Shown: positions 6,192 through 57,437, numbered from the stretch's first letter. The stretch: DNA of 64,000 nt from an uncultured archaeon (GCA_964512105.1 CAZEGI010000001.1:40534-104533), one strand, 5' to 3'. Notes: generated by a model not told the origin, from the letters alone. Made by a program: numbers and translations.

Positions 6192-6196
6192 TTAAA

Positions 6197-8224: not shown

Positions 8225-9174
8225 TGAGATTTGTAACAATAATAACAATAATGGTCATGATAACGGGCGTGAGCGCGCAGCCGCTGCCGGGAATAGAGGT
8301 CTGGGGACAGGTTGAGAACTATCAGGGTGCAGTGGATAACGCAATGGTTGTTGTAGTGGTTCCGAACACCGGTTACAGCAACACGACCTACACGAACGCG
8401 GACGGGTTTTACGATTTTTTAAGCGTTAATGCAAGTGTTGACGATGTCGTGATAGTAAACGCCACAAAGAACTTCCAGGTCGGTGGAAGTTCCGTGACTG
8501 TTGTGGAAGGTTCGAACCTTTACCGTGCGGATATCACACTTGTTCTGACAGTCATGCTCACCAACGTTGCGCTGGATGTCGGCAACGATACGGAAAAACC
8601 GTTTGAATTTTACGTCCCAGGGAATTTTACCGGAACCTTCATGACGGGGGACTTTTCCGACAGGGTCAACGAGATTTTGATGAAAAACTGCGAATGCGGC
8701 GGGTGTGCGATTGTAGGTGGTGATTGCATCATTCCCTTGAGATTGGGCTCGGATTCGCCTGGAAATTTAACAGTCAACGACCTTTATGTTCAGTACTCTG
8801 TGGGGAAAAGCATCAGGAACGTGAGTTACGGAAATGGCTTCAGATATTCGCGCGGGGGCTGCTGGGAAATCGAGTACGAAACTGTAAGTGGTAGAAAAAC
8901 GATGAACGTTTCGGTTCCGCCCGGACACGATTGCAGCAATCCCCTGAAGTACACGGGTGTGGAGCATGGATATCAGGAAACCGACGACGCGATAAATGAT
9001 GCGATGTATAGGTTGCTTAACGAAACAATGGATGCGGACGGAAACGGTGTTGTGGACAAGATAACTCAGGATGAGTATTTCAACCCGGAAAGCATGGTGT
9101 TCAACGCAGACGGCAGCATCGGAATAAAATCGCTCTGGGGGCCGTCGCTGTTTAAACTTATAGTGTGGATATGA
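8221..9174 (+). CDS. Secreted protein with a carboxypeptidase-regulatory-like (CarbopepD_reg) beta-sandwich domain
   Basis: Start at 8221 (MMRFVTIITIMVMITGVSAQP gives a Sec signal with AQP cleavage) overlaps the upstream stop. The segment VVVVPNTGYSNTTYTNADGFYDF...VVIVNATKNF matches the CarbopepD_reg pattern. The protein is Cys-rich (CECGGCAIVGGDC). Confidence 0.45.
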   Translation: MMRFVTIITIMVMITGVSAQPLPGIEVWGQVENYQGAVDNAMVVVVVPNTGYSNTTYTNADGFYDFLSVNASVDDVVIVNATKNFQVGGSSVTVVEGSNLYRADITLVLTVMLTNVALDVGNDTEKPFEFYVPGNFTGTFMTGDFSDRVNEILMKNCECGGCAIVGGDCIIPLRLGSDSPGNLTVNDLYVQYSVGKSIRNVSYGNGFRYSRGGCWEIEYETVSGRKTMNVSVPPGHDCSNPLKYTGVEHGYQETDDAINDAMYRLLNETMDADGNGVVDKITQDEYFNPESMVFNADGSIGIKSLWGPSLFKLIVWI

Positions 9175-10235: not shown

Positions 10236-10255
10236 ATTGTTATTCCTATCTTTTT

Positions 10256-12001
10256 ATGATGGCAGAGAAACCCGACAAACTGAAAGAGAAACTTCTGGAA
10301 CTGCTTCAGATTAGTGGAAAAAGCGGTTTGGATGATGTTGGTAAAAAACTGAAGGTTGACAAGAAACTGCTGCTTCCGGTGGTCGAGGAACTTGCGAGGG
10401 AAGGACGCATCCGGGTCGAGACCCGAATTCTGAAGGACCCGGAGATAGAACTGATTAAAACAGCAGCCGAGAGAAAACCGGATGAAATAAAGGTAGCAAA
10501 GAAGGTTGAGGGGAAGGTTGTTGAATCCTACGACATAGTTGCTGACGACGTTAAACTTCCCGTGAAAATTCTAGAGGTCGGGGATTACGTAAGGCACTAC
10601 GATGTCGCGTTGCCGCATATAGATTTGTCAACGCGTGCGATTCTCGACGAAACCAAGCGCATGCTGGTTGGCGATATCCAGATTGAAACCCGCGAGGCGA
10701 TAGATTCCGAAACCTTCCAGAGGTTGAGGGAAAGATTCGTGATACACTCGAAGGAACGGCTGAAGGATGTTTTAAAGGAGAGGTCCGAAGAGGACATCGG
10801 GCTTTTGTCGAGGGTTTTGGTAAACGAAATGTTGGGTTTGGGTGACCTTGAATACCTACTGCTTGACACGAACCTTGAGGAAGTAACTGTCAACAACAGC
10901 CGGGAACCGGTGTGGGTTTACCACAAAAAACACGGCTGGCTGAAAACGGAGATGATTATTCCGACCGAGGACATGATCAGGAATTATTCCTCGAGAATTG
11001 CGAGGGAAGTCGGCAGGGAGATAACGCACCTCGAGCCGCTGCTGGACGCCCACCTTCTTACGGGAGACAGGTTTAACGCCACGCTGTTCCCGGTATCCAC
11101 GCAGGGCAACACCATAACCATAAGGCGGTTCTCGAGGGTGCCATGGACGATTGTAAACCTCATGTCTGATGAACTTAAAACAGTAAATTCGAGCGTTGCG
11201 GCGTTCCTCTGGCTTGCGGTTGAATATGAGCTAAGTATGCTGGTCACCGGCGGAACCGCTGCTGGAAAAACAACAGTCCTCAATGCAATGATGCCGTTCA
11301 TGCCAGCCAACCAGAGGATAATAACGATGGAGGACACCCGTGAATTGAACCTGCCGGATTACCTGCAGTGGATTTCTCTGGTGAGCAGGCCTCCGAACCC
11401 GCAGGGTGAAGGCGAGGTGTCAATGCTGGATTTGGCAAAAAACGCTTTGAGAATGCGCCCGGACCGCGTTATAATCGGCGAGGTCAGAAGGAGGGAAGAA
11501 ACCGAAGTTTTATTCGAGGCCATGCACACCGGACATTCGGTTTATGGAACCTTCCATGCGGACCGCGCAGCCGAGGTCGTGGAAAGAATCACGAGCCCGC
11601 CGATGAATATTCCGGGCATTGTTCTTGGCTCCCTGCATCTGATCGTAACAACGTATCGCAACAGAAGGACAGGAACGAGAAGAATCTTCGAGATAGCGGA
11701 ACTGTTGAGGACGGAAACCGGAAAGCCGAACCTGAACGTACTTTACATATGGGACCCGAAAACCGACACCACGAAGCCGATGTACCCGAGCATGCGGGTA
11801 AAGGAGGAAATCGAAACGTTCACGGGCATGAGCGAAAAGGAAATCAAGGATAATCTGGACGACAAGCGGATGGTGCTTGAGGTGTTGCTGAAGCAGGGCA
11901 TTTTCGATGTTAACAACGTCGGAAGGATTATAAGCCGCTATTACATGGAACCGGATAAGGTAATCGAAGCCGCAAAACGCGGTAAATCTCTAAAGGAGTA
12001 A
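10256..12001 (+). CDS. Type IV pilus / archaellum-type secretion ATPase (VirB11/PilB/TadA/FlaI family)
   Basis: Walker A is LVTGGTAAGKTTVLNAMM. The Asp box/Walker B region is IITMEDTRELNLP and the His box is RPDRVIIGEVRRREE...EAMHTGHSVYGTFHA. Length is 581 aa. Confidence 0.85.
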   Translation: MMAEKPDKLKEKLLELLQISGKSGLDDVGKKLKVDKKLLLPVVEELAREGRIRVETRILKDPEIELIKTAAERKPDEIKVAKKVEGKVVESYDIVADDVKLPVKILEVGDYVRHYDVALPHIDLSTRAILDETKRMLVGDIQIETREAIDSETFQRLRERFVIHSKERLKDVLKERSEEDIGLLSRVLVNEMLGLGDLEYLLLDTNLEEVTVNNSREPVWVYHKKHGWLKTEMIIPTEDMIRNYSSRIAREVGREITHLEPLLDAHLLTGDRFNATLFPVSTQGNTITIRRFSRVPWTIVNLMSDELKTVNSSVAAFLWLAVEYELSMLVTGGTAAGKTTVLNAMMPFMPANQRIITMEDTRELNLPDYLQWISLVSRPPNPQGEGEVSMLDLAKNALRMRPDRVIIGEVRRREETEVLFEAMHTGHSVYGTFHADRAAEVVERITSPPMNIPGIVLGSLHLIVTTYRNRRTGTRRIFEIAELLRTETGKPNLNVLYIWDPKTDTTKPMYPSMRVKEEIETFTGMSEKEIKDNLDDKRMVLEVLLKQGIFDVNNVGRIISRYYMEPDKVIEAAKRGKSLKE

Positions 12002-32118: not shown

Positions 32119-34911
32119 ATGAAAATTAGCAAGATTTACACGCTGTCCTTTGCCATTTCTGCCAACACTGAAAAATCCCTGCTCCAAACCCTCAGCAAGA
32201 AAAAGAACGCCAAGATTGTAAAGGGTTACATGCCTCTGGGCAAGTTCAAAATTTCACGAGCCGAAGAGATAAAAAAAGGCACGATAATCAAGAAGATTTC
32301 ATACGACACGAGAACGAACCACTTTTTTGTTGACCTTGCGCACGGCGACCTCTACTACATGAACAGGATGGGCGCCTTCAAAAAGAATCCGGAAGTGGTC
32401 AAGTCGGATTTCCTGAGGAAGATTATTGACTTCCCGCCTGAGGCAATTTCGCTTCTGGGGCAGCTTCACGAGTTTGGAAGCATTCCATACGACGAGCTAA
32501 ACCAGACGCTTGTGTATGACCTTGCACGCGAGGGATTCATAGACATCTGGGAACCGGAAGCAGACCAGATATTCAACCTCATACGCTCGACCATAGAGCC
32601 GGATGAAGTTATAATGCACAAGCACTTTGTGAAACTCCGCGATTACCTTCCGAACTTCAGCAATTCACGGTATAACCTTGATGTTTTTTTGCACGTAAGT
32701 GAGACCGTTGATGATACCTATACAAAAGATACCATCAGGTATTCGAACGAGAGGGTTTGCGAATTGCTGGAGGGCATATTCGGCGGACACTGCGTCCTAA
32801 CTGGTTTGGTTTATCTGCCATACATAACGTGCATACACATAGAGAAGGACAGGCACGTCTCCGAGGTGTTCTTCCCCCTGTGCGCAAGAGACGCATCGGA
32901 CGTGAAAACCGGTTTTAAGGATGAGGTAAAGCTAAAACCGATAACCTTCATGACCCGGATGGATGCAGCCGGCTCCGTTCCGCTTGAGTCATCGACAATA
33001 AGCTTTTCCGATGTTGCGGATTTGGAGGATGTAAAGGAAAAAATCAGGCGTCTGATAGTTTATCCTCTGGTGAAACCGGAAGTTGCAAAGAAGTTTAAGA
33101 AGGTTGGAGGCGGCAGCGTTCTTTTTTACGGGCCTCCGGGTTGCGGTAAAACGTACATTGCAAGGGCAACGGTCGGCGAGTGCGGACTTTCTTTCTTCAA
33201 CATAAATACAAGCGACATTATTGCCGAGGGTTCCGAGGTGGCAACGAAGAATCTGCACGATGTGTTCATGCGTGCTTCCAAAAACGCACCTACGATTTTA
33301 TTCTTTGATGAGATTGACGCAATCGGCGGGGCCAGAAGCGATAAGGGCTCGCAGAGGGTCGTGGTTAACCAGTTTCTGATGGAGATGGACGGCATTGAAA
33401 CGCTGAGCGAGAACGTGCTGGTTATAGGCTCGACGAACGCGCCGTGGTACCTGGACCCTGCGCTGAGAAGGGCAGGTAGGTTTAATGATTTGATATTCAT
33501 TCCGCCACCCGACCTGAAAACACGGGTGGAGATATTCAAGATACACACGAGGAAAAAACCCATTTCCGAGGATATTGACTTTGAAAAACTTGCGGAGTTG
33601 ACTGAGGGCTATGCCTCATCGGACATAAAGGCGATATGCGATGACGCCATTGAAATACCTTGGGAGGAAGCGCTGCATGGAATTCCGGAAAGAAAGGCCA
33701 ACATGCAGGATTTTAGGTCAGTCATAAAAAAGAGGAAATCCTCACTTACGCCATGGTACAAGTTGGCCGAGCGGGAGATAAAGAAGAGTGGCGAGTCTGA
33801 ATTGTTTAGTGAACTTGCGACGCACATCTTGAAGCATGCGGGCGGTGTAGATGCCGCAGTCAAGCCGGGGGTGACGTTTGCTGACGTCGGTAATATGGAG
33901 GACGTCAAGGAGGAGATAAGGAAGAAGGTTGTTTATCCGATAAAAGACCCAAAACTGGCCGAGAGTTATGGTACAAAGGTTGGCGGCGGAATACTGTTTT
34001 ACGGGCCTCCGGGTTGCGGTAAAACATACATTGCAAGAGCGGCCGCAGGTGAATGCGAGGCAGCGTTCTTCAACATCCGGATTACGGACATATTGGGCGA
34101 GGAAGAAGGTTTGCGAGAAAAGAAGCTAAATTACGTTTTTGACAGGGCATCGAGAAACACGCCAGCGATACTTTTTTTCGATGAGCTTGACGCTATCGGT
34201 GGCAGAAGAGAAACCACAAGGGGTGACGCACGCACGCTTATAAACCAGTTCCTCACGGAAATGGATGGTTTTGAGAAGAAAGAGGGCGTTGTGGTTGTGG
34301 GTTCAACCAACGCACCGTGGGATATCGACCCCGCACTGCGGAGAGCGGGTAGGTTTACGGAGCAGGTTTATGTTCCGCCGCCGAACAAGGAAATGCGAAT
34401 TGAGATATTCAAGATACACGTGAAGAATAAACCCGTGGCAAAGAACATAAACTTCGGAAAGCTTGCGGAACTCACGGAAGGTTATTCGTCAGCAGACATA
34501 AAGGCGATATGCGACCTTGCTGCAGAGATACCGTGGGTTGAGGCGCTGGATGGTAAGGAAAAAAGAGAGATCAACATGCAGGACTTCCTGTCAGTGATAA
34601 AAAAGAGGAACTCTTCCATAATCCCGTGGTTCAAACTCGCAAAGAAACAGCTGAAGGAAAGCGGCGAGCGCGACATCTACGAGGAGTTATGGTTGGATAT
34701 AAAAACGCTCAGCAAAAAATTTGAGGAGAAAGAAAAGGCGGAGGATAAAAAGAAAAGCAAGGACAAGCTCAAGACCGAAAGGGAAAAGCTTGAAAAAATG
34801 ATAAAAACTGCAAAACAGAAGTTTGGCAGGGGCGAAATTGACAAAAGCGTTTACAACGAAATCATGAAGGACTACGAAAAACGGCTGATTGAGATTGAGT
34901 GTTCCGAGTGA
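32119..34911 (+). CDS. Tandem-AAA+ ATPase (CDC48/VCP-like D1+D2) with a novel ~300-aa N-terminal domain and a C-terminal coiled-coil
   Basis: Two AAA modules have Walker A LFYGPPGCGKTYIARA (twice) and Walker B ILFFDEIDAIGG / ILFFDELDAIGG, plus second-region-of-homology arginines. The N-terminal 300 aa show no CDC48-N-like motif. Confidence 0.7.
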   Translation: MKISKIYTLSFAISANTEKSLLQTLSKKKNAKIVKGYMPLGKFKISRAEEIKKGTIIKKISYDTRTNHFFVDLAHGDLYYMNRMGAFKKNPEVVKSDFLRKIIDFPPEAISLLGQLHEFGSIPYDELNQTLVYDLAREGFIDIWEPEADQIFNLIRSTIEPDEVIMHKHFVKLRDYLPNFSNSRYNLDVFLHVSETVDDTYTKDTIRYSNERVCELLEGIFGGHCVLTGLVYLPYITCIHIEKDRHVSEVFFPLCARDASDVKTGFKDEVKLKPITFMTRMDAAGSVPLESSTISFSDVADLEDVKEKIRRLIVYPLVKPEVAKKFKKVGGGSVLFYGPPGCGKTYIARATVGECGLSFFNINTSDIIAEGSEVATKNLHDVFMRASKNAPTILFFDEIDAIGGARSDKGSQRVVVNQFLMEMDGIETLSENVLVIGSTNAPWYLDPALRRAGRFNDLIFIPPPDLKTRVEIFKIHTRKKPISEDIDFEKLAELTEGYASSDIKAICDDAIEIPWEEALHGIPERKANMQDFRSVIKKRKSSLTPWYKLAEREIKKSGESELFSELATHILKHAGGVDAAVKPGVTFADVGNMEDVKEEIRKKVVYPIKDPKLAESYGTKVGGGILFYGPPGCGKTYIARAAAGECEAAFFNIRITDILGEEEGLREKKLNYVFDRASRNTPAILFFDELDAIGGRRETTRGDARTLINQFLTEMDGFEKKEGVVVVGSTNAPWDIDPALRRAGRFTEQVYVPPPNKEMRIEIFKIHVKNKPVAKNINFGKLAELTEGYSSADIKAICDLAAEIPWVEALDGKEKREINMQDFLSVIKKRNSSIIPWFKLAKKQLKESGERDIYEELWLDIKTLSKKFEEKEKAEDKKKSKDKLKTEREKLEKMIKTAKQKFGRGEIDKSVYNEIMKDYEKRLIEIECSE

Positions 34912-41708: not shown

Positions 41709-42405
41709 TCTTGAATTGTATCTTCCCTTCGTACAGTGCTTTTCCGACAATCGCGCCCCACGCCTCTGCTTCCTTTGTGTCCTCAAGGTCCTGTTCGGTG
41801 GAAATTCCGCCTGCAACGATTACCGGTTTTGTGGTTGAAGAAACAACCTTTGCTATCCTCGCCTTGTTTATGCCCTGCATTCTGCCTTCAACATCAACGT
41901 TCGTGTACAGAAACCCCCAGCAGCGGTCCTCGAGTTCTTTCATTAGCTCCGTGGTTTTGAATTCTGTTTTCTCCTGCCAGCCTTTGACCACAATGGTGTC
42001 CTGCTTCGAATCGAGAGCGATTATAACGCGGTTGAGCCCGAACTCCTTTTCTAACTTTCGTATTATAATAAAATTGTTTTTGTAATCGTTTATTGCAAGC
42101 GTGCCGAGAATCACCCTGTCCATGCCCATCCTCAGGGCGGTTTGCGCTTTTTCGTAATCCCTTATCCCGCCGCCGAAATGCACTTTTGCTCCGGTTTGTC
42201 TTTTTATCTCCCAAACGGTTTTTAGGTTGTCGGCATCGCCGAAGGTGGCATCGAGGTCGATAACGTGCAAAATTTCCGCTCCGAGATAACGCCAGTTTTT
42301 TGCTATCGTCACCGGGTCGCCGTAAAACTTTTCCGTTCCGGGTTTTCCGCCAACGAGCTGTGCACATTTCCCTCCATATATGTCAATTGCTGGAATGACC
42401 TTCAT
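41698..42405 (-). CDS. hisA: ProFAR isomerase HisA (HisA/HisF TIM-barrel)
   Basis: MKVIPAIDIYGGKCAQLV, ILHVIDLDA, FGGGIR and VIVAGGIST match. Confidence 0.8.
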   Translation of the reverse strand: MKVIPAIDIYGGKCAQLVGGKPGTEKFYGDPVTIAKNWRYLGAEILHVIDLDATFGDADNLKTVWEIKRQTGAKVHFGGGIRDYEKAQTALRMGMDRVILGTLAINDYKNNFIIIRKLEKEFGLNRVIIALDSKQDTIVVKGWQEKTEFKTTELMKELEDRCWGFLYTNVDVEGRMQGINKARIAKVVSSTTKPVIVAGGISTEQDLEDTKEAEAWGAIVGKALYEGKIQFKNEI

Positions 42406-43679
42406 TTTATGTTTTTTCGTAAATCCGCTATCGCTTCCGTAGTCTGAAGTGGCTGTTTTTTATTTTTGATTTTTTCGTACGTTTTTTCCGACAGCAGGTT
42501 TTTTAATTCGATTCTGAGCTCGTCGCATGCCTGTTTTAGGGCAACGTGCGATTCTGAATCGTATTTCAAAAAACAGACCACCCCAATGTAACTATTCCTA
42601 TGCGAAGTTAAATAATCCGCGACCCTTCTTTTTGTTACTTCGATGTATCTCTTTTTTATTTCATCCGTTTCCTTGCTTTCGTCCCAATCGTATGAGTTGA
42701 AAGGGTAACAGTCTTCGAACTCCCTCGGAACAACGCCCGCGTTGCTCAGCATAAGTTCGTGGATTTCGTCGCGGTTCTTTAAGCCCTTCAGAACGTTTAT
42801 TATTTTTTTGTGGGTTTCGGATTCCAAATACGGTTTTTTGTACGAGCATGGCAGGAACAGCGCGACCTTCTTTTTTTCCGGCGGAGCGTACCACCTGTTG
42901 AGGTAGTCCTGCCAGATTTCGAAGTAAGGGTGGGTTAAAAATTCCTCCCCGACCCCAACAAGGGGTTTCTTCAGGCGGTTGGGGAAGTTTGGTATAAAGC
43001 GAAACGTTTCTGCATCAAATTCAATCCTCTTGTTTCCTGCATATTTTTTCGTTAATTCAAAAAATTCTTTTTTCGACAAAAAATTCCATTCCCCGTTCAG
43101 CCACAGGTTGAACAGCTGTGAATTTTTATGCGGAAGCGTGTTTATTAGGACTATTGAATCCGAGTGCTTTAGCGCATAACCAACGGATTCATCCAGACTT
43201 TTCCTGACGTTTTTCACGAACGGCGGGTTTACGAGGATGTACGTTCTTAGTTTTACCCCGTGCTTTTTTAGAATTCTGGCTGCGTCTTCGTAGTTCTTGA
43301 GCGTGAACCCCTTGTTGATTTTTTTCAGAATTTTGTCGTCTGCAACCTCTAAACCGATGGCCACGATTAATTGCAAATCTCTGAATTCATTTAACTTCTC
43401 ATCGGTTATGAATTCCGGCCGTGACTCTATCATAAGTTTTTTTATTTTCCTCTCTTTTAGGTTTCTTACGAAATATTCCCTGACTTTCAGGGAAACCTGT
43501 TTATCGTCCAGAAAACTTCCGGAGCCGAAGACCTTGACGCCGGTCATGTTTTTCAGTTTTTTGAAGAACTGCTCCATGCGGCCTTTAAGCTGCTCTTGTG
43601 AGATTTCACTCGTGCTGTAGCCGCAGAATATGCACCTGCTCCAAGAACACCTTCCGGGAAGAATCAACACCGAATCCAT
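42402..43679 (-). CDS. Radical-SAM-like protein with a noncanonical CX4CX2C motif and a C-terminal domain of unknown function (archaeosine RaSEA-like?)
   Basis: N-terminal LPGRCSWSRCIFCGY. The C-terminal region ALFLPCSYKKPY...GVVCFLKYDSE has no family I can name with confidence. Confidence 0.45.
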   Translation of the reverse strand: MDSVLILPGRCSWSRCIFCGYSTSEISQEQLKGRMEQFFKKLKNMTGVKVFGSGSFLDDKQVSLKVREYFVRNLKERKIKKLMIESRPEFITDEKLNEFRDLQLIVAIGLEVADDKILKKINKGFTLKNYEDAARILKKHGVKLRTYILVNPPFVKNVRKSLDESVGYALKHSDSIVLINTLPHKNSQLFNLWLNGEWNFLSKKEFFELTKKYAGNKRIEFDAETFRFIPNFPNRLKKPLVGVGEEFLTHPYFEIWQDYLNRWYAPPEKKKVALFLPCSYKKPYLESETHKKIINVLKGLKNRDEIHELMLSNAGVVPREFEDCYPFNSYDWDESKETDEIKKRYIEVTKRRVADYLTSHRNSYIGVVCFLKYDSESHVALKQACDELRIELKNLLSEKTYEKIKNKKQPLQTTEAIADLRKNIK

Positions 43680-43690
43680 GTTTCAGCACA

Positions 43691-44617
43691 TCAGTAGCCG
43701 CGCTCACGAAGTTTTTTCTGCTCCTCGCGTATGCGCGCAAGTTCGTCGCGTATGCTTTGCACCGTTACGGCTTCCTTTTCCTCGCGCATCTTTCTTTCAG
43801 CATCTCCTGTGAGGTTCAACAGAACGCCATGAAGCAGTTTCTTTTTTATGGACACTATGTTTTTCAACTCAAGCTCCGCCACCCATTCCAATACCGTATG
43901 CTCGTCAATCCCGATTTCCCTTGCCGCATTTCTGGCAGTCATTTCACCCTTTTGCTTCAGGAGTTTTACTAGGTCTTCTTTTGTCTTTTCGCTTGTCTGA
44001 AAATCGCTTCCGTACAAAAATTCTTCTTCCGATGGTTTTGGTGCGGATGTTTTTTCTTTAACCGGCTCCTGCGGAAGTTCGCCTCGTTCTTCCCTCGGTT
44101 CAAGACCCGCCTTCATGCGCTCCTGCTTTAACAGTTCTTCCTGTTTTTTCAGTTCTTCCTCTAATTTTAGCCGTGCCATGCGAACTTTTTTGAGTTCGCT
44201 TTCTTTTTTCAGAAGTTCTTCCTTCTCTTTCTTTAGCAGCTGCTCTATATTTTTCTTCCTGAGTGTTTCTCTTCTCTCCTTTATTGCCGTAAGCCGGTCA
44301 AGAACGGATTGCCTTATCCGGAGTGTCGGGTTTCCAAGGTAGCGATCATCAACCCGTATCAACCCGCGTTTTTCGAGAGCGTTGGCCCATTTGTCTACGG
44401 TTTTGATTGGCAGACCGAGCGTCTTTGACGCATCGCTTACACGAATCTCGCCGATGTTTACTATTAGTTTCAGCAGGTCCTTGGGCGTTTTCCCCTCCCT
44501 CTTCTGCTTTTCGACATCTATGAGTCTTTGTAATTTCTCGATTTCGTCTTTTCTGTTTTTCTCATTACGCATCATCTTCTTCCATTCCTTGCGTTTTTCC
44601 CATAACTCGTCCTGCAT
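43691..44617 (-). CDS. Coiled-coil protein with winged-helix-like DNA-binding segments
   Basis: Lys/Glu-rich heptad-like stretch (LKKEKEELLKKESELKKVRMARLKLEEELKKQEELLKQ) plus two HTH-like segments (ASKTLGLPIKTVDKWANALEKRGLI; AAREIGIDEHTVLEWVAELE). Confidence 0.45.
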   Translation of the reverse strand: MQDELWEKRKEWKKMMRNEKNRKDEIEKLQRLIDVEKQKREGKTPKDLLKLIVNIGEIRVSDASKTLGLPIKTVDKWANALEKRGLIRVDDRYLGNPTLRIRQSVLDRLTAIKERRETLRKKNIEQLLKKEKEELLKKESELKKVRMARLKLEEELKKQEELLKQERMKAGLEPREERGELPQEPVKEKTSAPKPSEEEFLYGSDFQTSEKTKEDLVKLLKQKGEMTARNAAREIGIDEHTVLEWVAELELKNIVSIKKKLLHGVLLNLTGDAERKMREEKEAVTVQSIRDELARIREEQKKLRERGY

Positions 44618-44667
44618 TTTTTTAACCTACACCACTCTAATATATATGAAAGCTAGGCGGCATAAAA

Positions 44668-46110
44668 ATGATGTTGGAGACAACGAAGGACATTAAGATA
44701 CCCAAAGATCCAATCGAACGAGTAATCGGACAGGATAACGCAGTCTCTAAGGTTAAGCTGGCAATACGACAGAGGAGACATTTGTTGTTGGTCGGCCCAC
44801 CAGGAATTGGTAAATCCATGTTGGCGATGGGTCTAGCAGCACATCTACCAAAACCAAGAGATGAGGTGTCTGTGGTACACAACCCAAAAAACGAAAACCG
44901 ACCCCTGCTGGAGGTGCGAAGTAGGGGGGAGATAATGAAGGGGGGGTTGGTTTCGGGGGTTAGAGGTAGGGTGGTTGCTCCGACAGAGGTTCCAACGTTT
45001 GTTGCAGAGCGCCTTGGTTTTAGATGCTCTTCCTGCGGCGATATAAGTTCTTCGAGGAATGTTGTGTGCCCACGGTGCGGGGCAGCAAAGCGGGGTAAAC
45101 TCTCGCGCGGTAAGCGTCTGTCGCCGTTTGGTGACATAATAACGGAGATATTCGAGATTGGTACGGTAGAGCCAGAAATTGAGGTTCAACTAACGTACGG
45201 TGATAACGCCAAAAAAACGGTTGTTTACCAGAGGATAGACGAAACACGCATAAGGATTGTTGATAAAGATGAGCTAGAAAGTAGCAGGAAATCACCCGAT
45301 AGGAAGCTCGTAAATACGATACTGCCGCTGAACAGGCAGTTGTTCGTCGGGGTTAGTGGTGCCTCAGAAACCGAACTTTTAGGTGACATCAGACACGACC
45401 CGTACGGGGGCCACCCGCAGATAGGAACGCCGGCGTATTTGAGGGTTGTTCCCGGCGCAATCCATGAAGCGCACGAGGGTGTTTTGTTCGTTGACGAAAT
45501 CTCACACCTCGGGCATCTGCAGAATTACGTGCTTACGGCCCTGCAGGAAAAAAAGTTTCCGATTGTCGGCAGGAACCCGCACTCCGCCGGCGCCTCCGTT
45601 AAGGTCAACGACGTTCCGTGCGATTTTATATTTGTGGGGGCATGCAACATAGGCGAGCTTGAGAGCATCCTTCCGCCGCTGAGGTCACGAATACTCGGAA
45701 ACGGATATGAGATACTGTTAAACACGACCATGCCCGATAACAGCGCCAATAGAGATAAATTGGTGAGGTTTATCGCACAGGAGATAGAGAAGGATGGGAG
45801 GATACCGCACGCCAACCGCGGCGCCATGGGGGAGATTGTTGCGGAGGCCAAGAAAAAGGCCAAGGAGATGGATAACGCAAGGGACGCACTCACCCTGCGG
45901 CTCAGAGATCTTGGCGGAATTGTGCGTTTGGCTGGCGACCTGGCTGTTGATGACGGTTCCAAGGTAATAGAGAAAAAACACGTGAAGCGGGCCATAAGTG
46001 AGGCAAAATCCATCGAGCACCAGCTTTTTGACAGATACGGCTCCGTGTGGAGCGGATTGAAGAAGGACGAGCCATATTTAGAGCATGGGGGGGCCGACGG
46101 CTATGTATAG
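44668..46110 (+). CDS. Lon-related AAA+ ATPase without a protease domain, carrying an inserted C4 zinc ribbon
   Basis: Walker A is LLLVGPPGIGKSMLAMGLAAHLP and Walker B is VLFVDEISHL; the sensor/arginine-finger region RSRILGNGYEI resembles the LonB ATPase module. CSSCGDISSSRNVVCPRCG is inserted. No Ser-Lys protease domain follows. Confidence 0.55.
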   Translation: MMLETTKDIKIPKDPIERVIGQDNAVSKVKLAIRQRRHLLLVGPPGIGKSMLAMGLAAHLPKPRDEVSVVHNPKNENRPLLEVRSRGEIMKGGLVSGVRGRVVAPTEVPTFVAERLGFRCSSCGDISSSRNVVCPRCGAAKRGKLSRGKRLSPFGDIITEIFEIGTVEPEIEVQLTYGDNAKKTVVYQRIDETRIRIVDKDELESSRKSPDRKLVNTILPLNRQLFVGVSGASETELLGDIRHDPYGGHPQIGTPAYLRVVPGAIHEAHEGVLFVDEISHLGHLQNYVLTALQEKKFPIVGRNPHSAGASVKVNDVPCDFIFVGACNIGELESILPPLRSRILGNGYEILLNTTMPDNSANRDKLVRFIAQEIEKDGRIPHANRGAMGEIVAEAKKKAKEMDNARDALTLRLRDLGGIVRLAGDLAVDDGSKVIEKKHVKRAISEAKSIEHQLFDRYGSVWSGLKKDEPYLEHGGADGYV

Positions 46111-46143
46111 GGGGGTCACTTCCTGTATTTGATGTAATCAAGA

Positions 46144-47451
46144 ATGAACGGTGTTGTTCTTATATCGCCTGCGTGTGGTGGGATTGTAGAGTCTGGCGGG
46201 ATTTACTATTCTTCTTTTCCGCTTGGTCTGGGGTATATCGGCGCGGTTTTAAGGGAGAACGGAATCCGTGTCAGTGCGGTTGACTGCGAGGTTGAGAAGC
46301 GACCGTTAAATGAAGTTGAACGTGTTTTAAAAAAAGAGTCGCCATCTGTTGTTGGTATTAGTGTCACGAGCCGGACGCTGCCATTTGTTTACGGACTGGT
46401 GAATCACATAAAACGTTTGGGGTTGGACACACCGGTCGTTGTTGGCGGACCACACATAACTGCTGACCCGGACATTGTTCCTCTGCTTGGTGCGGACTAT
46501 GGTTTTGCCGGAGAATGTGAGTATTCTTTCTTGGAATTTTTGAGCGGGGGGGTTTATAATGCCCGCGTGTCTGATGTTCCTGGATTGATAACGAGTCAGG
46601 ACGGCAGATTACGGGTAAACAAACCAGCAAAAATAACCGATCTAAACACACTACCATTTCCTGGCCGCAAACTTTTCAGGCTAGAGAAATACAAATTTAC
46701 GCCAATCCTAACGTCGCGCGGGTGTTCATTTAATTGCGCATTCTGCGCGCAGGCAGGAAGCGGCGTTCGGTTTAGACGCCCCGAGAACGTAGTTAGTGAG
46801 GTGGAAGAATGCGCAGCGGGGGGTAACAAGATAGATTTTGTGGATGATGTATTTACCGTAGATAAAAAAAGGGTGTTGCGTGTTTGCGAGTTGATGAAGG
46901 ACGCAAAGATAAACGTGAAGTGGGCGTGCACCACGCGCGCAGATTTGGTTGATTACGATATTTTGAGAGAGATGTATGCTGCCGGTTGTTGGTATATTTC
47001 CTTTGGTGTTGAGTCCGGCTCCGAGAGGATAAGGCAAGAAATCGGAAAGGGACTGAGCAACAAAAAGATAATTGATGCGTTTAGGAATTGTAGGATGATA
47101 GGCATCAAAACGCGCGCATACGGTATGTTTGGTCATCCTGGAGAAACCCCGGGGGAGATGAAAAGCACGATAGATTTTATATGCGGTCTGGACGCGACGG
47201 ACGCGTTGTTCATGCCGACGGACATCGTTCCAGGAACGCGGCTTTACACGCTCTCCTTGAAGGAAGGCCGAATAGATGGCGGCGTCTGGGAGAGTTACAT
47301 GCGGGGATTAGAAGAATATCCGATATATATTCCCAAGAACGTATATGTGGAGGAGGTCTTCGGGTTCGTGGAATCTGCTTACCGGTCGTTTTACGGCCGA
47401 CGGGCATACAATAAAATAAAAAACGCCCTTCAAAAATGGATGAAAACATAA
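46144..47451 (+). CDS. B12-binding-domain radical SAM protein (class B)
   Basis: The N-terminal Rossmann-like B12 domain (VVGISVTSRT...VVVGGPHITADPD) is followed by the radical SAM CX3CX2C motif (TSRGCSFNCAFCAQ). Confidence 0.75.
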   Translation: MNGVVLISPACGGIVESGGIYYSSFPLGLGYIGAVLRENGIRVSAVDCEVEKRPLNEVERVLKKESPSVVGISVTSRTLPFVYGLVNHIKRLGLDTPVVVGGPHITADPDIVPLLGADYGFAGECEYSFLEFLSGGVYNARVSDVPGLITSQDGRLRVNKPAKITDLNTLPFPGRKLFRLEKYKFTPILTSRGCSFNCAFCAQAGSGVRFRRPENVVSEVEECAAGGNKIDFVDDVFTVDKKRVLRVCELMKDAKINVKWACTTRADLVDYDILREMYAAGCWYISFGVESGSERIRQEIGKGLSNKKIIDAFRNCRMIGIKTRAYGMFGHPGETPGEMKSTIDFICGLDATDALFMPTDIVPGTRLYTLSLKEGRIDGGVWESYMRGLEEYPIYIPKNVYVEEVFGFVESAYRSFYGRRAYNKIKNALQKWMKT

Positions 47452-49040
47452 GGTGCCGGATCAATCTTGGTTTGCTTGACCGCGTTGGTTGGTACGGTTT
47501 GGAGAAGGAGTTTTTTGATGTTTTGGTTGTTGGTTCCGGCGTTGCTGGGCTTAGAACAGCAATCGAAATCCTGAACAGAAAAGATGTCTCCTTGGCGATC
47601 ATCACAAAAGATTCGAGAGAGAGCAACAGCAAGTATGCGCAGGGCGGCATAGCCGTGGCGCTTGGGGAAAGGGACAACGCAAGACTGCACGTAAGAGACA
47701 CCATGAACGTTGGTGCTGGTTTGTGTGATGTAAGGACGGTAAACATTGTTGTGAAGGAGGCTCCGGAACGCGTAAAGGAACTTGTTGGGTGGGGGTGTAC
47801 GTTTGATAAGTCAAACAGGAACTTTGATTTTGGTCTCGAATCCGCGCATTCGGTGGCAAGGATAGTGCACTACAAAGACAAAACGGGTGATGTTTTGTGC
47901 GATGTCCTGAAGAAGAAGGTTTCAGAGCGCTCTCCGGTGTGGTTTGACGGATGTTTTTGCGTGGATTTTTTGTTGAATCGTGGGTTTGTCGGTGTTCTGG
48001 TTTTGGACAAACACGAGGAACTGAAACTTCTGTTGGCCAAGGCGTGCGTCTTGGCAAGCGGGGGGGTTGGGCAGATATATTCAAACACAACAAATCCTTT
48101 GGGTTCGACAGGAGACGGGATAGCGATGGGTTATCGTGCTGGTGCGTTGCTGCGGGGCATGGAGTTTGTACAGTTCCATCCTACCGCGCTCTCCGCCGAG
48201 ACGGTTGGTGGGCGGTGTTTTTTAATATCCGAATCCGTCCGTGGAGCCGGGGCGTTTTTAGTTAATTCGGTCGGGGAGCGGTTCATGGGTAAGTACTCCC
48301 GTAATAAGGACCTTGCTACGAGAGACGTTGTTTCTCGTGCGATTTGGAACGAAATGTTGGGTGGGCGCTCTGTTTTTTTAGACATGCGTCTTTTAGACGG
48401 GTCTTTTGTAAGGCGCCGCTTTCCGACGATAGTAAAAGAGTGCGAACGGAACGGCATTGACGTCTCCGTCGATTTACTGCCTATTGTTCCTGCAGCGCAT
48501 TACCTAGTCGGCGGTATAAAAACGGATTTGTTCGGGCGGTGTAATATTGGTGGGATTTTTGTTGTTGGTGAAGCCGCATCCACCGGCCTGCACGGCGCAA
48601 ACCGACTTGCATCAAACTCTCTTGCAGAGGCCCTTGTTTTCGGGCGGCGTTGTGGTGTCGGTGTTTTAAGATACATTGAAAAAAACGAACAGAAAAAACC
48701 GGCCCCCCCAAAGGGCAGAAGAGTGCGGCCGCGTGGGTTTTTTGGTGGGGTGTCTAAGATTAAAAACAAGATTCAGGAATCCTGTTGGGGGGGATTAGGA
48801 ATTCTCCGGTCAAGACAGTCAATAACGGACGGTTTATTGATGCTGAAAAGCGTTGAGGGGGAGTTAGGCACTACATTATTTTTGAGTAGGGAGTATTTTG
48901 AAGCGGTTAATATGCTAACCGTTGCGAAACTTGTTGGGGTGGCGGCCATGAAGAGAAAAGAGAGCCGAGGGGCACACTATAGAAGCGACTACCCGAAAAA
49001 AATAGATTCTTGGAGAAAAAACATAAATATAACAAGATAA
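47436..49040 (+). CDS. nadB: L-aspartate oxidase (fumarate-reductase flavoprotein family)
   Basis: The FAD dinucleotide motif DVLVVGSGVAGLRTA, AQGGIAVAL, HYLVGGIKTD and RLASNSLAEALVFG match the NadB/SdhA family. NadB is preferred because of its size (534 aa) and because nadC is nearby. Confidence 0.65.
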   Translation: MDENIRCRINLGLLDRVGWYGLEKEFFDVLVVGSGVAGLRTAIEILNRKDVSLAIITKDSRESNSKYAQGGIAVALGERDNARLHVRDTMNVGAGLCDVRTVNIVVKEAPERVKELVGWGCTFDKSNRNFDFGLESAHSVARIVHYKDKTGDVLCDVLKKKVSERSPVWFDGCFCVDFLLNRGFVGVLVLDKHEELKLLLAKACVLASGGVGQIYSNTTNPLGSTGDGIAMGYRAGALLRGMEFVQFHPTALSAETVGGRCFLISESVRGAGAFLVNSVGERFMGKYSRNKDLATRDVVSRAIWNEMLGGRSVFLDMRLLDGSFVRRRFPTIVKECERNGIDVSVDLLPIVPAAHYLVGGIKTDLFGRCNIGGIFVVGEAASTGLHGANRLASNSLAEALVFGRRCGVGVLRYIEKNEQKKPAPPKGRRVRPRGFFGGVSKIKNKIQESCWGGLGILRSRQSITDGLLMLKSVEGELGTTLFLSREYFEAVNMLTVAKLVGVAAMKRKESRGAHYRSDYPKKIDSWRKNINITR

Positions 49041-51682: not shown

Positions 51683-52525
51683 ATGATGCACCGAAAAATT
51701 TTGGAGGGAAAACTTCTGCAATTTGTTAAGGAAGACGCGGGCGTATCTGATATCACCCTGCACTTTACTCCGGATAAAAAGGTCAGCGCGGAAATTATCG
51801 CCAACGACACCGGAATTTTGGCCGGTGCGCATGAACTAAACACACTTTTTGAACTCTTCGGCGTAAAAGTAAAAAAACACTCCAACGACGGCGACAAAAT
51901 ACGGAAGGGGCAGGCAGTTTTCATTCTAACTGGAAACTCCCGCGACATTCTTCTTGTGAAACGAACCGCACTGAGCATACTGTCGAGGATGTCCGGAATA
52001 GCGACTGCAACAAAACAGTTTATAGATTCGGCCAAAAAATCAAATCCTCGGGTTAGGGTCGCAGCCACGCGAAAAACAACGCCCGGGTTCAGATACTTTG
52101 AAAAGTGTGCCGTTAGGGTTGCGGGGGGCGACACGCACCGCTTAACCCTGTCCGAAGAGGTTTTGATAAAAAAGGAACACCTGAAACTATTCAAAGACCT
52201 TGCGTCTGCGATACAGGCCGCAAAGAGACAAACGAGTTTCGTCCACAAGATTGAAGTTGAGGTCGATAAGGTTGAGAATGCGCTAATCGCGGCGAAAGAA
52301 GGCGCAGACATAATAATGCTGGACAACATGTCCGCAGGCAACGTACAAAAAACAATAAAAAAATTAAACGAACTCGGGCTTAGGAAAAACGTTATTCTGG
52401 AGGTTTCCGGCGGAATAACCCTCCAAAACATTCAAACATACGCCAAGGCCGGCCCCGACATCATTTCCGTCGGCGAGATAACAAAAAACACGAAGGCAAT
52501 AGACTTCTCTTTGAATCTGAGATAA
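51683..52525 (+). CDS. nadC: Nicotinate-nucleotide pyrophosphorylase (quinolinate phosphoribosyltransferase)
   Basis: AATRKTTPGFRYFEKCAVRVAGGDTHRL and ADIIMLDNMS are the NadC signatures. Confidence 0.85.
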   Translation: MMHRKILEGKLLQFVKEDAGVSDITLHFTPDKKVSAEIIANDTGILAGAHELNTLFELFGVKVKKHSNDGDKIRKGQAVFILTGNSRDILLVKRTALSILSRMSGIATATKQFIDSAKKSNPRVRVAATRKTTPGFRYFEKCAVRVAGGDTHRLTLSEEVLIKKEHLKLFKDLASAIQAAKRQTSFVHKIEVEVDKVENALIAAKEGADIIMLDNMSAGNVQKTIKKLNELGLRKNVILEVSGGITLQNIQTYAKAGPDIISVGEITKNTKAIDFSLNLR

Positions 52526-56285: not shown

Positions 56286-57437
56286 TTATTTTGCGAGTAA
56301 CCTTCGTGCATTATCCGAAAGGCCGTAAACATACTGGATTCTGCCAGCCCTTTTTTCCTTACTGCAACGTATAACAAGCGGATAAGGCACCCCAGGCTTT
56401 CTTTTTACCTCCTCTGGATTAAGCCCTCGGAGTTTCCTTATCAATGAACCTATGCTCCTGATGTCCTTCCCCAAGACATCCGATAACTCCGTTATGCTCA
56501 TGGATTCACGTTCCATTAACAACTTCACAATTTCGAGTTGCGTCGGGGACAATTCATCAGTAAAATCGCCGCTGGGCACCGCTTTTTCCACTGTTATGCC
56601 TGGGCTTAATTCGGACTCAAAATCCTCCACTTCGGGTTCAATTTTTTCTTCATATGTGTGTGTTCCTAACAACTCCTCCACAACCCTGTCCGTAATCTCA
56701 AATATTTCCCTCTTTGCGCAACCCTCTAAAACGGTCTGGCCGTTCTCCAAAAGAAGTCTCGGAACGCTGTTTGCAGACTCTGCAAGTCGCTTTATGCCGG
56801 CCTCCGTGAATGGTGCGGTCCCCTTACCTTTGACCCACGCTATGCGGTTTTTTACAATTTCAACCAGCTGCTCGGTGGTCAGGGGCTTTAGCGTTATCGT
56901 CCTTGATTTCCTGTCCCTAAACGCGCTCTCAGCGGTAATTCTATCCACCAAACTACTCAGACCGAAGAACATCATAAAGACATTGTCTGCCCTGTCATTC
57001 AGTATCCTGAGCCACTTAAACAACCCGTCATCATATTCATGGGCTTCATCAAACAGGATGAGTAGCCTCTTTTTACCAAGGTTTTTTTGCAGAAAATCGC
57101 CAACAGACGTTCTATCCATATTCCTTGCTGATAAACGTTTCCAAAACGGCAGTGTGCTGATAATTCTTCTCGCAACGTTTTCTTCTGGTTCATATGCGTC
57201 AAATGAGACAACATAGTCTACGCCTATCGGTTTTTTCATCATGATCTGGTTCATAAATGTTGTTTTTCCATAGCCGATAGGTGCAGTAACCACTATTATT
57301 CTATCCCAGCCGCCGACAGATTCGCAAACCTGCCTGTACTCATCAACACGCCCTATTATCGGTATGTCTAAAGAGGTCGATTTTATGAATGGGCTCTTTG
57401 ACCAACCATAATGTACGTAGTACTCGTTTCTGTCCAT
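56286..57437 (-). CDS. AAA+ ATPase (ExeA/AAA_22-like, Orc1-like architecture) with a C-terminal winged-helix domain
   Basis: The N-terminus YYVHYGWSKSPF...IIGRVDEYRQV matches the ExeA pattern. Walker A is VTAPIGYGKTTF and Walker B is LLILFDEAHEY. The C-terminal ITELSDVLGKDIRSIGSLIRKL is wHTH-like. Confidence 0.6.
   Translation of the reverse strand: MDRNEYYVHYGWSKSPFIKSTSLDIPIIGRVDEYRQVCESVGGWDRIIVVTAPIGYGKTTFMNQIMMKKPIGVDYVVSFDAYEPEENVARRIISTLPFWKRLSARNMDRTSVGDFLQKNLGKKRLLILFDEAHEYDDGLFKWLRILNDRADNVFMMFFGLSSLVDRITAESAFRDRKSRTITLKPLTTEQLVEIVKNRIAWVKGKGTAPFTEAGIKRLAESANSVPRLLLENGQTVLEGCAKREIFEITDRVVEELLGTHTYEEKIEPEVEDFESELSPGITVEKAVPSGDFTDELSPTQLEIVKLLMERESMSITELSDVLGKDIRSIGSLIRKLRGLNPEEVKRKPGVPYPLVIRCSKEKRAGRIQYVYGLSDNARRLLAK

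What the first reader, a model, noticed from the sequence alone, without database searches (positions are those of the whole stretch)
43691..47451. Lon-like ATPase lacking a protease domain, with a zinc-ribbon insert, between a coiled-coil wHTH protein and a B12 radical SAM enzyme
ORF 44668-46110 has a LonB-like AAA+ module but no Ser-Lys protease domain. It carries an inserted C4 ribbon (CSSCGDISSSRNVVCPRCG) between Walker A and B. It is divergently arranged with a coiled-coil/wHTH protein and followed 33 nt later by a class-B B12 radical SAM enzyme. Protease-less Lon ATPases occur in specialised systems, and the trio could be a functional unit.
Basis: partly seen in the sequence, partly recalled or inferred. 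Interest (0 to 1): 0.5.

Follow-up and report, generated by a model that had tools for sequence, protein, structure and literature searches.

The report
Protease-less Lon ATPase with proteasome-docking tail
The gene encodes a soluble archaeal Lon-type unfolding motor with no protease of its own, whose conserved tail resembles the motif other ATPases use to plug into the proteasome; its conserved gene partner elsewhere is the primase-like DnaG, not its two neighbours here.

Summary
ORF 44668-46110 (480 aa) has an intact LonB-type AAA+ module, no S16 protease domain and no membrane hairpin. It carries a C4 zinc ribbon between Walker A and B. A frameshift is excluded.

It belongs to a tight, uncharacterised family of about 470-510 aa, found in Altiarchaeota, Methanobacteriales, Thermoplasmata/Methanomassiliicoccales and Micrarchaeota. 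Swiss-Prot calls the Methanothermobacter member "Putative lon protease homolog".

The proposed trio is not a conserved unit:
- The wHTH protein is an orphan.
- The B12 radical SAM gene follows the ATPase only in some Altiarchaeota.

Two features were missed:
- A disordered tail of about 20 residues ends in an invariant penultimate Tyr ([G/S]-Y-x in 119/119 complete close homologs; Met-Phe-x in Thermoplasmata relatives). This fits the published working definition of the HbYX proteasome-docking motif.
- In 21 of 36 non-redundant lineages across three phyla the gene lies directly downstream of archaeal dnaG, while all other flanking genes differ.

Best reading (inferred, about 0.4): a LonB-derived stand-alone unfoldase that delivers substrates to the 20S proteasome, linked by gene order to DnaG and so perhaps to the RNA exosome. 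No publication on the family was found. It is a new variant of a known kind.

The parts
44668..46110 (+). Protease-less, soluble LonB-type AAA+ ATPase (480 aa)
   Evidence: TIGR00764 LonB scores 365 bits, with its best stretch ending at model position 402/608. The best PDB sequence and fold matches are T. onnurineus LonB 3k1j/4zpx. There is no Lon_C domain. The family is 470-510 aa.
44794..44817 (+). Walker A, GPPGIGKS (residues 43-50)
   Evidence: G43, P44, P45, G46, G48, K49 and S50 are invariant in the 64-sequence alignment A2.
44917..45330 (+). Insert (residues ~84-221) at the position where LonB carries its transmembrane hairpin. It holds a zinc ribbon, a disordered loop and a small three-stranded sheet with a helix
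   Evidence: The two stretches aligned to 3k1j (chain 28-107 and 155-386) flank it. The highest 19-residue Kyte-Doolittle mean is 0.78, so no TM segment is expected. The insert has no significant fold match.
45025..45078 (+). C4 zinc ribbon, CSSC-x10-CPRC (residues 120-137)
   Evidence: C120, C123, C134 and C137 are invariant. CxxC...CxxC is present in 120/120 homologs. The Pfam Zn_ribbon_3 match is weak.
45391..45408 (+). RHDPYG, aligned to the RHDPF segment of LonB (putative pore loop 1; residues 242-247)
   Evidence: H243, D244 and P245 are invariant and Y246 is at least 90% conserved. The segment aligns to RHDPFQS of 3k1j. The pore-loop assignment comes from memory of the TonLonB literature and was not tested here.
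45481..45498 (+). Walker B, VLFVDE (residues 272-277)
   Evidence: D276 and E277 are invariant.
45637..45918 (+). Sensor 1 (N327), Arg-finger region LRSRI (338-342) and sensor 2 LTLRLRDLGG (408-417)
   Evidence: N327, R339, R341, R411 and R413 are invariant. The LRSRI and LTLRLRDLGG strings are identical in TonLonB.
46054..46107 (+). Disordered C-terminal tail (residues 463-480) ending in G-Y-V, an HbYX-like motif with invariant penultimate Tyr
   Evidence: pLDDT is below 50 for residues 463-480. Among close homologs, position -2 is Tyr in 119/119 (entropy 0), position -3 is G or S (1.1 bits) and all other tail positions have at least 2.7 bits. In the loci, 85/91 have Y or F at -2, including a Met-Phe-x class.
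44618..44667 (.). 50-nt divergent intergenic region with TAATATATAT at 44639-44648, roughly equidistant from both start codons (a possible shared TATA element)
   Evidence: Read directly from the sequence. Promoter function is inferred, not tested.
43691..44617 (-). Orphan coiled-coil protein with two wHTH-like domains (308 aa). It is a neighbour, not a conserved partner
   Evidence: Pfam TrmB, MarR and HTH_29 matches are weak. Only the protein itself is found among 5.8e9 proteins.
46144..47451 (+). Class-B (B12-binding) radical SAM enzyme (435 aa). Its synteny with the ATPase is specific to some Altiarchaeota
   Evidence: PF02310 plus PF04055. It is below every NCBIfam cutoff. Homologs at 36-43% identity are mostly unnamed and mostly from Altiarchaeota. 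It lies directly downstream of the ATPase in L023, L025, L107 and L108 only.

Best explanation
ORF 44668-46110 encodes a soluble paralogue of the archaeal membrane protease LonB that has kept the ATP-driven unfolding motor and lost the protease.

Shown by the sequence:
- The motor is intact (Walker A and B, sensor 1, arginine finger, sensor 2).
- LonB's membrane hairpin is replaced by a zinc-ribbon-containing insert.
- LonB's protease domain is replaced by a flexible tail of about 20 residues whose last three residues are [Gly/Ser]-Tyr-X.

Inferred mechanism: the protein forms a hexameric ring. By homology with LonB, the zinc-ribbon inserts crown the substrate-entry face and select substrates or adaptors. 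The polypeptide is pulled through the pore by the conserved RHDPYG loop. The C-terminal tails on the exit face dock into the pockets of the 20S proteasome alpha ring, as the HbYX tails of PAN, Cdc48 and AMA do. The protein would then act as an alternative proteasomal ATPase.

Ancestrally the gene is the downstream partner of dnaG, which encodes a subunit of the archaeal RNA exosome. This suggests that its clients or its regulation are tied to that machinery. In this window the pairing has been broken, and the flanking wHTH and radical SAM genes are incidental.
For: Identity as a LonB-type AAA+ module:
- TIGR00764 scores 365 bits.
- Identity to T. onnurineus LonB is 53% over 231 aligned core residues and 44% over the N-terminal 79.
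- Foldseek's best hits are 3k1j and 4zpx, with E = 1e-36.
- All catalytic motifs are invariant in 64 sequences.

No protease and no membrane anchor.

The tail:
- AF2 predicts residues 463-480 as disordered.
- Tyr at position -2 is present in 119/119 complete close homologs. Position -3 is G or S, and the preceding residues are essentially unconserved.
- 85/91 loci have Tyr or Phe at -2. Thermoplasmata and Methanomassiliicoccales members end in Met-Phe-[H/S/N], a textbook hydrophobic-aromatic-X ending.
- The background rate of Y/F at -2 among window ORFs is 6/59.
- Forouzan et al. 2012 (PMC3493965) assigned HbYX as 'small or hydrophobic at -3, Tyr/Phe at -2'. They surveyed only classical AAA proteins, and they report that Thermoplasmata lack PAN.
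- The tail leaves the ring where LonB's protease domain would attach, which is the exit face. This is inferred from homology.

DnaG link:
- dnaG (NF003108, 471 and 554 bits against a cutoff of 300) lies directly upstream on the same strand in 21 of 36 non-redundant lineages, with gaps of about 20-270 nt between aligned ends.
- The pairing spans Methanobacteriales, Thermoplasmata/Methanomassiliicoccales and Altiarchaeota.
- The genes outside the pair differ completely between lineages.
Against: - There is no physical or experimental evidence for proteasome binding. The tools could not model a complex.
- Position -3 is Gly or Ser, not hydrophobic, in the window's clade. It therefore fits only the relaxed HbYX definition.
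- Several divergent 50%-identity representatives lack the motif or bury it about 13 residues from the end (P0246, P0252, P0255, P0256, P0260; loci L003, L046, L054, L067, L093).
- From my own knowledge, not tested here: C-terminal penultimate-Tyr tails can recruit non-proteasomal partners, for example the p97 tail binding PUB/PUL domains.
- No proteasome gene lies in the window or was seen next to the family.
- Methanobacteriales already have PAN (my own knowledge).
- The conserved dnaG linkage could instead point to a nucleic-acid-related role.
Confidence: 0.42

Rival explanations
1. A stand-alone AAA+ remodeller dedicated to DnaG and the RNA exosome. The hexamer would assemble, disassemble or recycle DnaG-containing complexes (or their protein clients). 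The conserved C-terminal Tyr tail would bind DnaG or another exosome component rather than the proteasome.
For: The dnaG-ATPase pair is the only gene linkage conserved across three phyla: 21/36 lineages, short gaps, same strand, all other flanks different. DnaG is described as a subunit of the archaeal exosome core in the introduction of PMC10470531. The ATPase motor is intact.
Against: No sequence feature points to DnaG binding. About 40% of lineages, this window included, have lost the adjacency yet keep the tail unchanged. A conserved penultimate aromatic residue next to the free carboxylate is the specific signature of alpha-ring pocket docking.
Confidence: 0.25
2. A nucleic-acid motor partnered with the DnaG primase, analogous to DnaB-DnaG or T7 gp4. 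The ring would translocate on DNA or RNA and the zinc ribbon would bind nucleic acid.
For: The operon with a Toprim primase homolog. Zinc ribbons often bind nucleic acids. [quoted passage not shown] Weaker fold hits include RuvB, ComM and MCM.
Against: The motor is 53% identical to a bona fide protein translocase, LonB, including the RHDP[Y/F] loop. Helicase hits are far weaker, at E about 1e-7 against 1e-36. From my own knowledge, archaeal DnaG is better established as an exosome subunit than as a replicative primase.
Confidence: 0.1
3. The wHTH regulator, the Lon-like ATPase and the B12 radical SAM enzyme form one functional module, for example the ATPase unfolding or presenting a substrate to the rSAM enzyme.
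For: The ATPase and rSAM genes are 33 nt apart here. They overlap by 4 nt in L023 and L107. The adjacency recurs in several Altiarchaeota although the rSAM proteins share only about 38% identity. Several further Altiarchaeota contigs appear to carry both genes, judged only by matching contig lengths.
Against: The wHTH protein is an orphan. The rSAM is absent next to the ATPase in 35 of 38 informative lineages, including other Altiarchaeota and all other phyla. The rSAM is just as consistently followed by an iminoaspartate-forming enzyme and DHS in a long same-strand housekeeping block. No PADLOC system matches.
Confidence: 0.05
4. A split Lon. The ATPase works in trans with a separately encoded S16 Lon protease domain, or hetero-oligomerises with canonical LonB.
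For: The AAA+ module is very close to LonB. From my own knowledge, stand-alone Lon protease-domain proteins exist in archaea.
Against: No S16-like sequence lies in the window or in any of about 95 family loci. The conserved tail has no counterpart in LonB.
Confidence: 0.05

Closest known systems
Archaeal LonB protease (e.g. Thermococcus onnurineus LonB, PDB 3K1J/4ZPX; NCBIfam TIGR00764)
   Same: The AAA+ module is homologous throughout. Identity is 53% over the core, with identical LRSRI and LTLRLRDLGG motifs and an equivalent RHDP[F/Y] loop. It is the best sequence and fold match. Both carry an insertion between Walker A and B at the same site.
   Different: There is no S16 Ser-Lys protease domain and no transmembrane hairpin. 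The insert is a C4 zinc ribbon plus a small beta unit. The protein ends in a disordered [G/S]-Y-x tail. It scores below the LonB family cutoff.
HbYX-bearing archaeal proteasomal ATPases: PAN, Cdc48/VAT, AMA (Forouzan et al. 2012, PMC3493965)
   Same: A stand-alone ATPase of unfoldase type with a flexible C-terminus. The penultimate residue is an invariant Tyr (Phe in some lineages) preceded by a small or hydrophobic residue.
   Different: It belongs to the Lon branch of AAA+, not the classical AAA clade. It has no N-terminal coiled-coil/OB or double-psi-barrel domains. The -3 residue is Gly or Ser in most members. Proteasome binding is untested.
ClpX (bacterial AAA+ unfoldase of ClpXP); comparison from my own knowledge
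   Same: A motor related to Lon that has no protease of its own. It carries a C4 zinc-binding domain used for substrate and adaptor recognition, and it docks on a separate peptidase. This is the closest analogy for how the family would work.
   Different: In ClpX the zinc domain is N-terminal, not inserted in the ATPase fold. Docking uses IGF loops rather than a C-terminal tail. ClpX is bacterial. There is no specific sequence similarity beyond the AAA+ core.
LonC (Meiothermus taiwanensis MtaLonC, PDB 4FW9 and others)
   Same: A Lon-family protein with a soluble insertion in the AAA-like domain. It is the second-best group of fold matches.
   Different: It is the inverse case. LonC keeps the protease and, according to the abstract of PMC13069640, lacks ATPase activity. 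Here the ATPase motifs are intact and the protease is missing.
BrxL of BREX systems, and Methanobrevibacter smithii 'Lon-like-Ms' (PMC10164562; PMC4864567)
   Same: Lon-related AAA+ proteins without transmembrane segments.
   Different: Both retain a C-terminal Lon-protease-like domain and are much larger (Lon-like-Ms is 77 kDa). PADLOC gives no BrxL hit. Lon-like-Ms clusters with bacterial proteins, not with LonB.

Membership tests
LonB protease (MEROPS S16, subfamily B; TIGR00764) | LonB-type AAA+ module with intact Walker A/B, sensor and Arg-finger motifs | tested here: met
   TIGR00764 E = 7e-109. 53% core identity to 3k1j. The motifs are invariant in 64 sequences.
LonB protease (MEROPS S16, subfamily B; TIGR00764) | C-terminal S16 proteolytic domain with a Ser-Lys dyad | tested here: not met
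   No PF05362. The best stretch of the model match ends at position 402/608. tblastn with LonB protease domains finds nothing in the window in any frame. The next gene starts 33 nt after the stop.
LonB protease (MEROPS S16, subfamily B; TIGR00764) | Transmembrane hairpin inserted between Walker A and Walker B | tested here: not met
   The highest 19-residue hydropathy mean in the insert is 0.78, and 1.35 in the whole protein. The insert holds a C4 ribbon instead.
LonB protease (MEROPS S16, subfamily B; TIGR00764) | Score above the curated family cutoff | tested here: not met
   365 bits against a cutoff of 516.6.
HbYX-type proteasome-activating ATPases (PAN/Rpt, Cdc48, AMA) | C-terminal tripeptide with Tyr/Phe at the penultimate position next to the free carboxylate | tested here: met
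   G-Y-V in the window. 119/119 close homologs have Tyr, and 85/91 loci have Tyr or Phe.
HbYX-type proteasome-activating ATPases (PAN/Rpt, Cdc48, AMA) | Hydrophobic residue at position -3 | tested here: inconclusive
   Gly or Ser in 117/119 close homologs. Met in the Met-Phe-x class. This meets the 'small or hydrophobic' rule of PMC3493965 but not the strict motif.
HbYX-type proteasome-activating ATPases (PAN/Rpt, Cdc48, AMA) | Membership of the classical AAA clade | tested here: not met
   The best matches are Lon-family throughout. PF00004 matches only weakly at Walker A (25.5 bits, residues 39-60).
HbYX-type proteasome-activating ATPases (PAN/Rpt, Cdc48, AMA) | Binds the 20S alpha ring and opens its gate; supports ATP-dependent degradation | not testable with these tools
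   This needs biochemistry or multimer structure prediction. Only single chains could be modelled.
LonC (ATPase-dead Lon-like protease) | Degenerate Walker motifs together with an active S16 domain | tested here: not met
   The Walker motifs are intact and invariant. There is no S16 domain.
BREX BrxL and other defence-system Lon-like ATPases | Match to defence-system profiles and a defence-island context | tested here: not met
   PADLOC returns only generic AAA and wHTH fragments of 34 bits or less. The context is housekeeping genes.
Class B (cobalamin-dependent) radical SAM enzymes (neighbour gene 46144-47451) | N-terminal B12-binding domain plus a radical SAM core with CxxxCxxC | tested here: met
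   PF02310 at 66 bits and PF04055 at 87.5 bits. CSFNCAFC at residue 194. No NCBIfam subfamily cutoff is reached.

The most novel reading that the evidence does not exclude
This family is a fourth, evolutionarily independent class of archaeal proteasome-activating ATPase. It would be derived from the Lon (HCLR) branch of AAA+ rather than from classical AAA proteins, would use a zinc-ribbon crown for substrate selection, and would be encoded in an operon with the exosome subunit DnaG. It would therefore couple RNA-degradation and protein-degradation machineries physically or through regulation. In PAN-less lineages such as Thermoplasmata it might be a principal proteasomal ATPase alongside Cdc48.
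Probability: 0.35. Interest if true: 0.8.

Novelty: new variant of a known kind. Interest (0 to 1): 0.6.

Why it matters
Archaeal proteasomes are known to be served by PAN, Cdc48 and AMA, which are all classical AAA proteins.

A Lon-derived motor that has swapped its built-in protease for a proteasome-docking tail would show that the proteasome recruited unfoldases from a second AAA+ lineage. It would also show how a fused AAA+ protease can become a modular one.

The cross-phylum dnaG linkage would add a concrete, testable link between RNA-degradation and protein-degradation machineries. [quoted passage not shown]

The family has a cultivable, tractable member in Methanothermobacter (AAB85390.1), so the hypothesis can be tested directly with standard 20S activation assays.

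If the docking idea is wrong, the family is still an uncharacterised, highly conserved archaeal AAA+ protein that databases currently mislabel as 'Lon protease'.

Tried and rejected
1. Hidden protease through a frameshift: rejected.
2. Defence system (BREX BrxL or similar): rejected. PADLOC gives only generic fragments and the context is housekeeping.
3. Identity with the published M. smithii 'Lon-like-Ms': rejected. That protein is 77 kDa, has a protease domain and groups with bacterial homologs.
4. Fold of the insert: a separate AF2 model of residues 78-232 reached only pLDDT 65, and Foldseek against the PDB gave nothing with E below 0.8. The only hint was a 28-residue RanBP2-type zinc finger. 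No fold assignment was made.
A C-terminal sub-alignment was used for the metagenome scan instead.
6. The homolog search for the wHTH protein returned only the protein itself.
7. Literature searches for HbYX+LonB, DnaG+Lon and protease-less archaeal Lon found no description of this family. The library excludes most subscription journals, so absence is not proof.
8. The 930-aa double-AAA protein at 32119-34911 was checked as a possible HbYX Cdc48. Its tail is ...IECSE, so it carries no such motif.

Full report
**Observation.**
The three ORFs exist as described:
- a 308-aa protein on the minus strand (43691-44617);
- a 480-aa ATPase (44668-46110), 50 nt away and divergent;
- a 435-aa B12-binding radical SAM protein (46144-47451), 33 nt after the ATPase stop.

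In the ATPase, Walker A (residues 43-50) and Walker B (272-277) bracket the quoted CSSC...CPRC ribbon at residues 120-137.

**No protease domain, and no frameshift.**
- Pfam finds AAA-type fragments, a weak zinc-ribbon match and a sub-cutoff LonB lid match, but no Lon_C/S16 domain.
- The NCBIfam LonB model TIGR00764 matches strongly (365 bits), but below its cutoff of 516.6, and its best stretch ends at model position 402 of 608.
- The best solved relatives, by sequence and by fold of an AF2 model (pLDDT 80.7), are the T. onnurineus LonB structures 3K1J and 4ZPX.
- Identity to that LonB is 53% over 231 core positions and 44% over the N-terminal 79.
- tblastn with the C-terminal domains of nine canonical LonBs finds no protease-like sequence in any frame of the window or of about 95 related loci.
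- The 120 closest homologs are all 442-522 aa long and stop at the same place.

The truncation is therefore ancestral to a family, not an artefact. The insert between the two LonB-homologous stretches has no hydrophobic segment (maximum 19-residue hydropathy 0.78), so the protein is soluble, unlike LonB.

**The family.**
- Homologs at 53-63% identity come from Altiarchaeota, to which the window evidently belongs (100% identical copies lie on four public contigs), and from Methanobacterium and Methanothermobacter.
- More distant members lie in Thermoplasmata, Methanomassiliicoccales and Micrarchaeota MAGs.
- In a library clustered at 50% identity, only about 10-15 full-length representatives precede the canonical LonBs of 600-1100 aa. 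This is a compact, highly conserved clade.
- The M. thermautotrophicus member (AAB85390.1) is the Swiss-Prot entry 'Putative lon protease homolog'.
- I found no paper describing the family. The published M. smithii 'Lon-like protease' is a different, 77-kDa protein.

**Conserved anatomy.**
In a 64-sequence alignment the following are invariant:
- Walker A and Walker B;
- sensor 1 (N327);
- R339 and R341;
- R411 and R413 of the sensor-2 motif;
- the four ribbon cysteines.

The RHDPYG segment aligns with RHDPF of LonB and is almost as conserved: H243, D244 and P245 are invariant, and Y246 is at least 90% conserved. All 120 homologs have CxxC...CxxC. The motor is therefore very probably active, and the ribbon is functional rather than incidental.

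AF2 places a small three-stranded sheet and a helix after the ribbon, with a disordered loop between them. The isolated insert has no significant fold match.

**The C-terminal tail.**
- The last 18 residues are predicted disordered.
- When sequences are anchored at the C-terminus, position -2 is Tyr in 119 of 119 complete close homologs (entropy 0).
- Position -3 is Gly or Ser (1.1 bits), and every other tail position has at least 2.7 bits.
- Across fetched loci, 85 of 91 complete genes have Tyr or Phe at -2.
- The Thermoplasmata and Methanomassiliicoccales members end in Met-Phe-His/Ser/Asn.
- Only 6 of 59 ORFs in the window have Tyr or Phe at that position.

An aromatic residue fixed relative to the free carboxylate, at the end of a variable linker, is the signature of the HbYX motif. 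PAN, Cdc48 and AMA use that motif to dock into the 20S alpha ring.

Forouzan et al. 2012 assigned the motif by exactly this rule: small or hydrophobic at -3, Tyr or Phe at -2. They surveyed only classical AAA proteins, and they note that Thermoplasmata lack PAN.

Caveat: several divergent representatives lack the motif, or carry a D-Y-G-like motif about 13 residues from the end.

**Neighbourhood.**
Eighty metagenomic loci, six genomic loci and nine look-ups by exact protein were compared by tblastn and clustered at 80% ATPase identity.

- Of 36 lineages with enough upstream sequence, 23 have archaeal dnaG upstream on the same strand, and 21 have it directly adjacent.
- The dnaG genes score 471 and 554 bits on the archaeal DnaG equivalog, against a cutoff of 300.
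- The pair occurs in Methanothermobacter (small Toprim protein-DnaG-ATPase-XerA), in Thermoplasmata and Methanomassiliicoccales (L001, L004, L006, L050), and in Altiarchaeota (L023, L024, L107, L108).
- The genes outside the pair are unrelated between lineages: M50 peptidase, ribulose-phosphate epimerase or cation efflux upstream; a GNAT, a PLD-like protein or an unknown downstream.

By contrast, the wHTH protein is upstream only in the window, and it has no detectable homolog at all.

The B12-rSAM follows the ATPase only in a subset of Altiarchaeota, within a same-strand block dnaG-ATPase-rSAM-(AspDH or NadB)-DHS. Only 3 of 38 informative lineages have it downstream. L107 and L108, fetched later, add two more Altiarchaeota examples.

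In the window the upstream half of this block, including dnaG, has been replaced. No dnaG is found anywhere in the 64 kb.

**Interpretation.**
Shown: a soluble, protease-less, zinc-ribbon-bearing LonB paralogue with an intact motor, a conserved [G/S]-Y-x tail, and an ancestral operon partner, dnaG.

Inferred:
- It forms a LonB-like hexamer.
- The insert sits at the entry face, because that is where LonB's membrane hairpin emerges.
- The tail leaves the exit face, where LonB's protease would be.

The most economical mechanism is a modular unfoldase that hands substrates to a separate peptidase, and the tail points to the 20S proteasome (confidence about 0.4).

The dnaG linkage fits a functional tie to the exosome. 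The introduction of PMC10470531 lists DnaG among the core subunits of the archaeal RNA exosome. The linkage also keeps two rivals alive: a DnaG/exosome-specific remodeller whose tail binds that partner (about 0.25), and a nucleic-acid motor paired with a primase (about 0.1). For the second rival, BrxL shows that Lon-related rings can bind DNA.

The trio hypothesis (about 0.05) and a split Lon working with a separate S16 domain (about 0.05) have little support.

**Verdict.**
Its proposal that the three genes form a unit is not supported. What is really there is an uncharacterised, widely conserved archaeal AAA+ family. It is a new variant of a known kind, with a specific and testable proteasome-docking hypothesis and an unreported cross-phylum linkage to dnaG.

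Noticed in passing
window 44618-44667: The 50-nt gap between the divergent wHTH and ATPase genes contains TAATATATAT (44639-44648). It lies about 20-30 nt from both start codons, which would fit a single shared TATA element and near-leaderless transcripts in both directions.
   Followed up: no
window 42402-43679 (-): This 425-aa protein fuses a radical SAM domain resembling the archaeosine enzyme RaSEA (TIGR01210, 145 bits, below its cutoff of 212) to a DUF5591 domain like that of ArcS. The two partners of the archaeosine synthase complex may be joined in one polypeptide.
   Followed up: no
window 46144-49040; L023, L025, L107, L108: The B12 radical SAM gene is always followed directly by an iminoaspartate-forming enzyme: L-aspartate oxidase NadB in the window (overlapping by 16 nt) and aspartate dehydrogenase in the other Altiarchaeota. 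NadC is close by (51683-52525). No NadA was seen among the window ORFs that were scanned. A link of this rSAM to NAD synthesis is an untested thought.
   Followed up: partly
window 3206-10235: A MoxR-type AAA_3 ATPase (with a weak bpMoxR match) is followed by an FG-GAP beta-propeller protein and three ORFs of 332-675 aa with no Pfam match. This may be a MoxR/beta-propeller ternary-system-like cluster.
   Followed up: no
window 32119-34911 (+): This 930-aa protein has two AAA domains but an unusual N-terminus. Its C-terminus is ...IECSE, so it has no HbYX-type ending, unlike typical archaeal Cdc48.
   Followed up: partly
L003, L046, L054, L067; P0246, P0251, P0252: A divergent subclade of the ATPase family, including a Micrarchaeota MAG, has a D-Y-G/S-like motif about 13-17 residues before the end rather than at the terminus, as if the ancestral tail had been extended. 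Two representatives of about 442 aa (P0255, P0260) lack the tail altogether.
   Followed up: partly
L020-L022 (Methanothermobacter), 6357-10464: In Methanothermobacter the arrangement is a small Toprim protein (PRK04017 family), DnaG, the Lon-like ATPase and the XerA recombinase, all on one strand with short gaps. XerA follows the ATPase throughout the Methanobacteriales-like cluster.
   Followed up: partly
window 56286-57437 (-): An AAA_22 ATPase with a C-terminal winged-helix match (HVO_A0114-like), resembling an Orc1/Cdc6-type protein. It lies near TiaS and the anaerobic ribonucleotide reductase NrdD.
   Followed up: no
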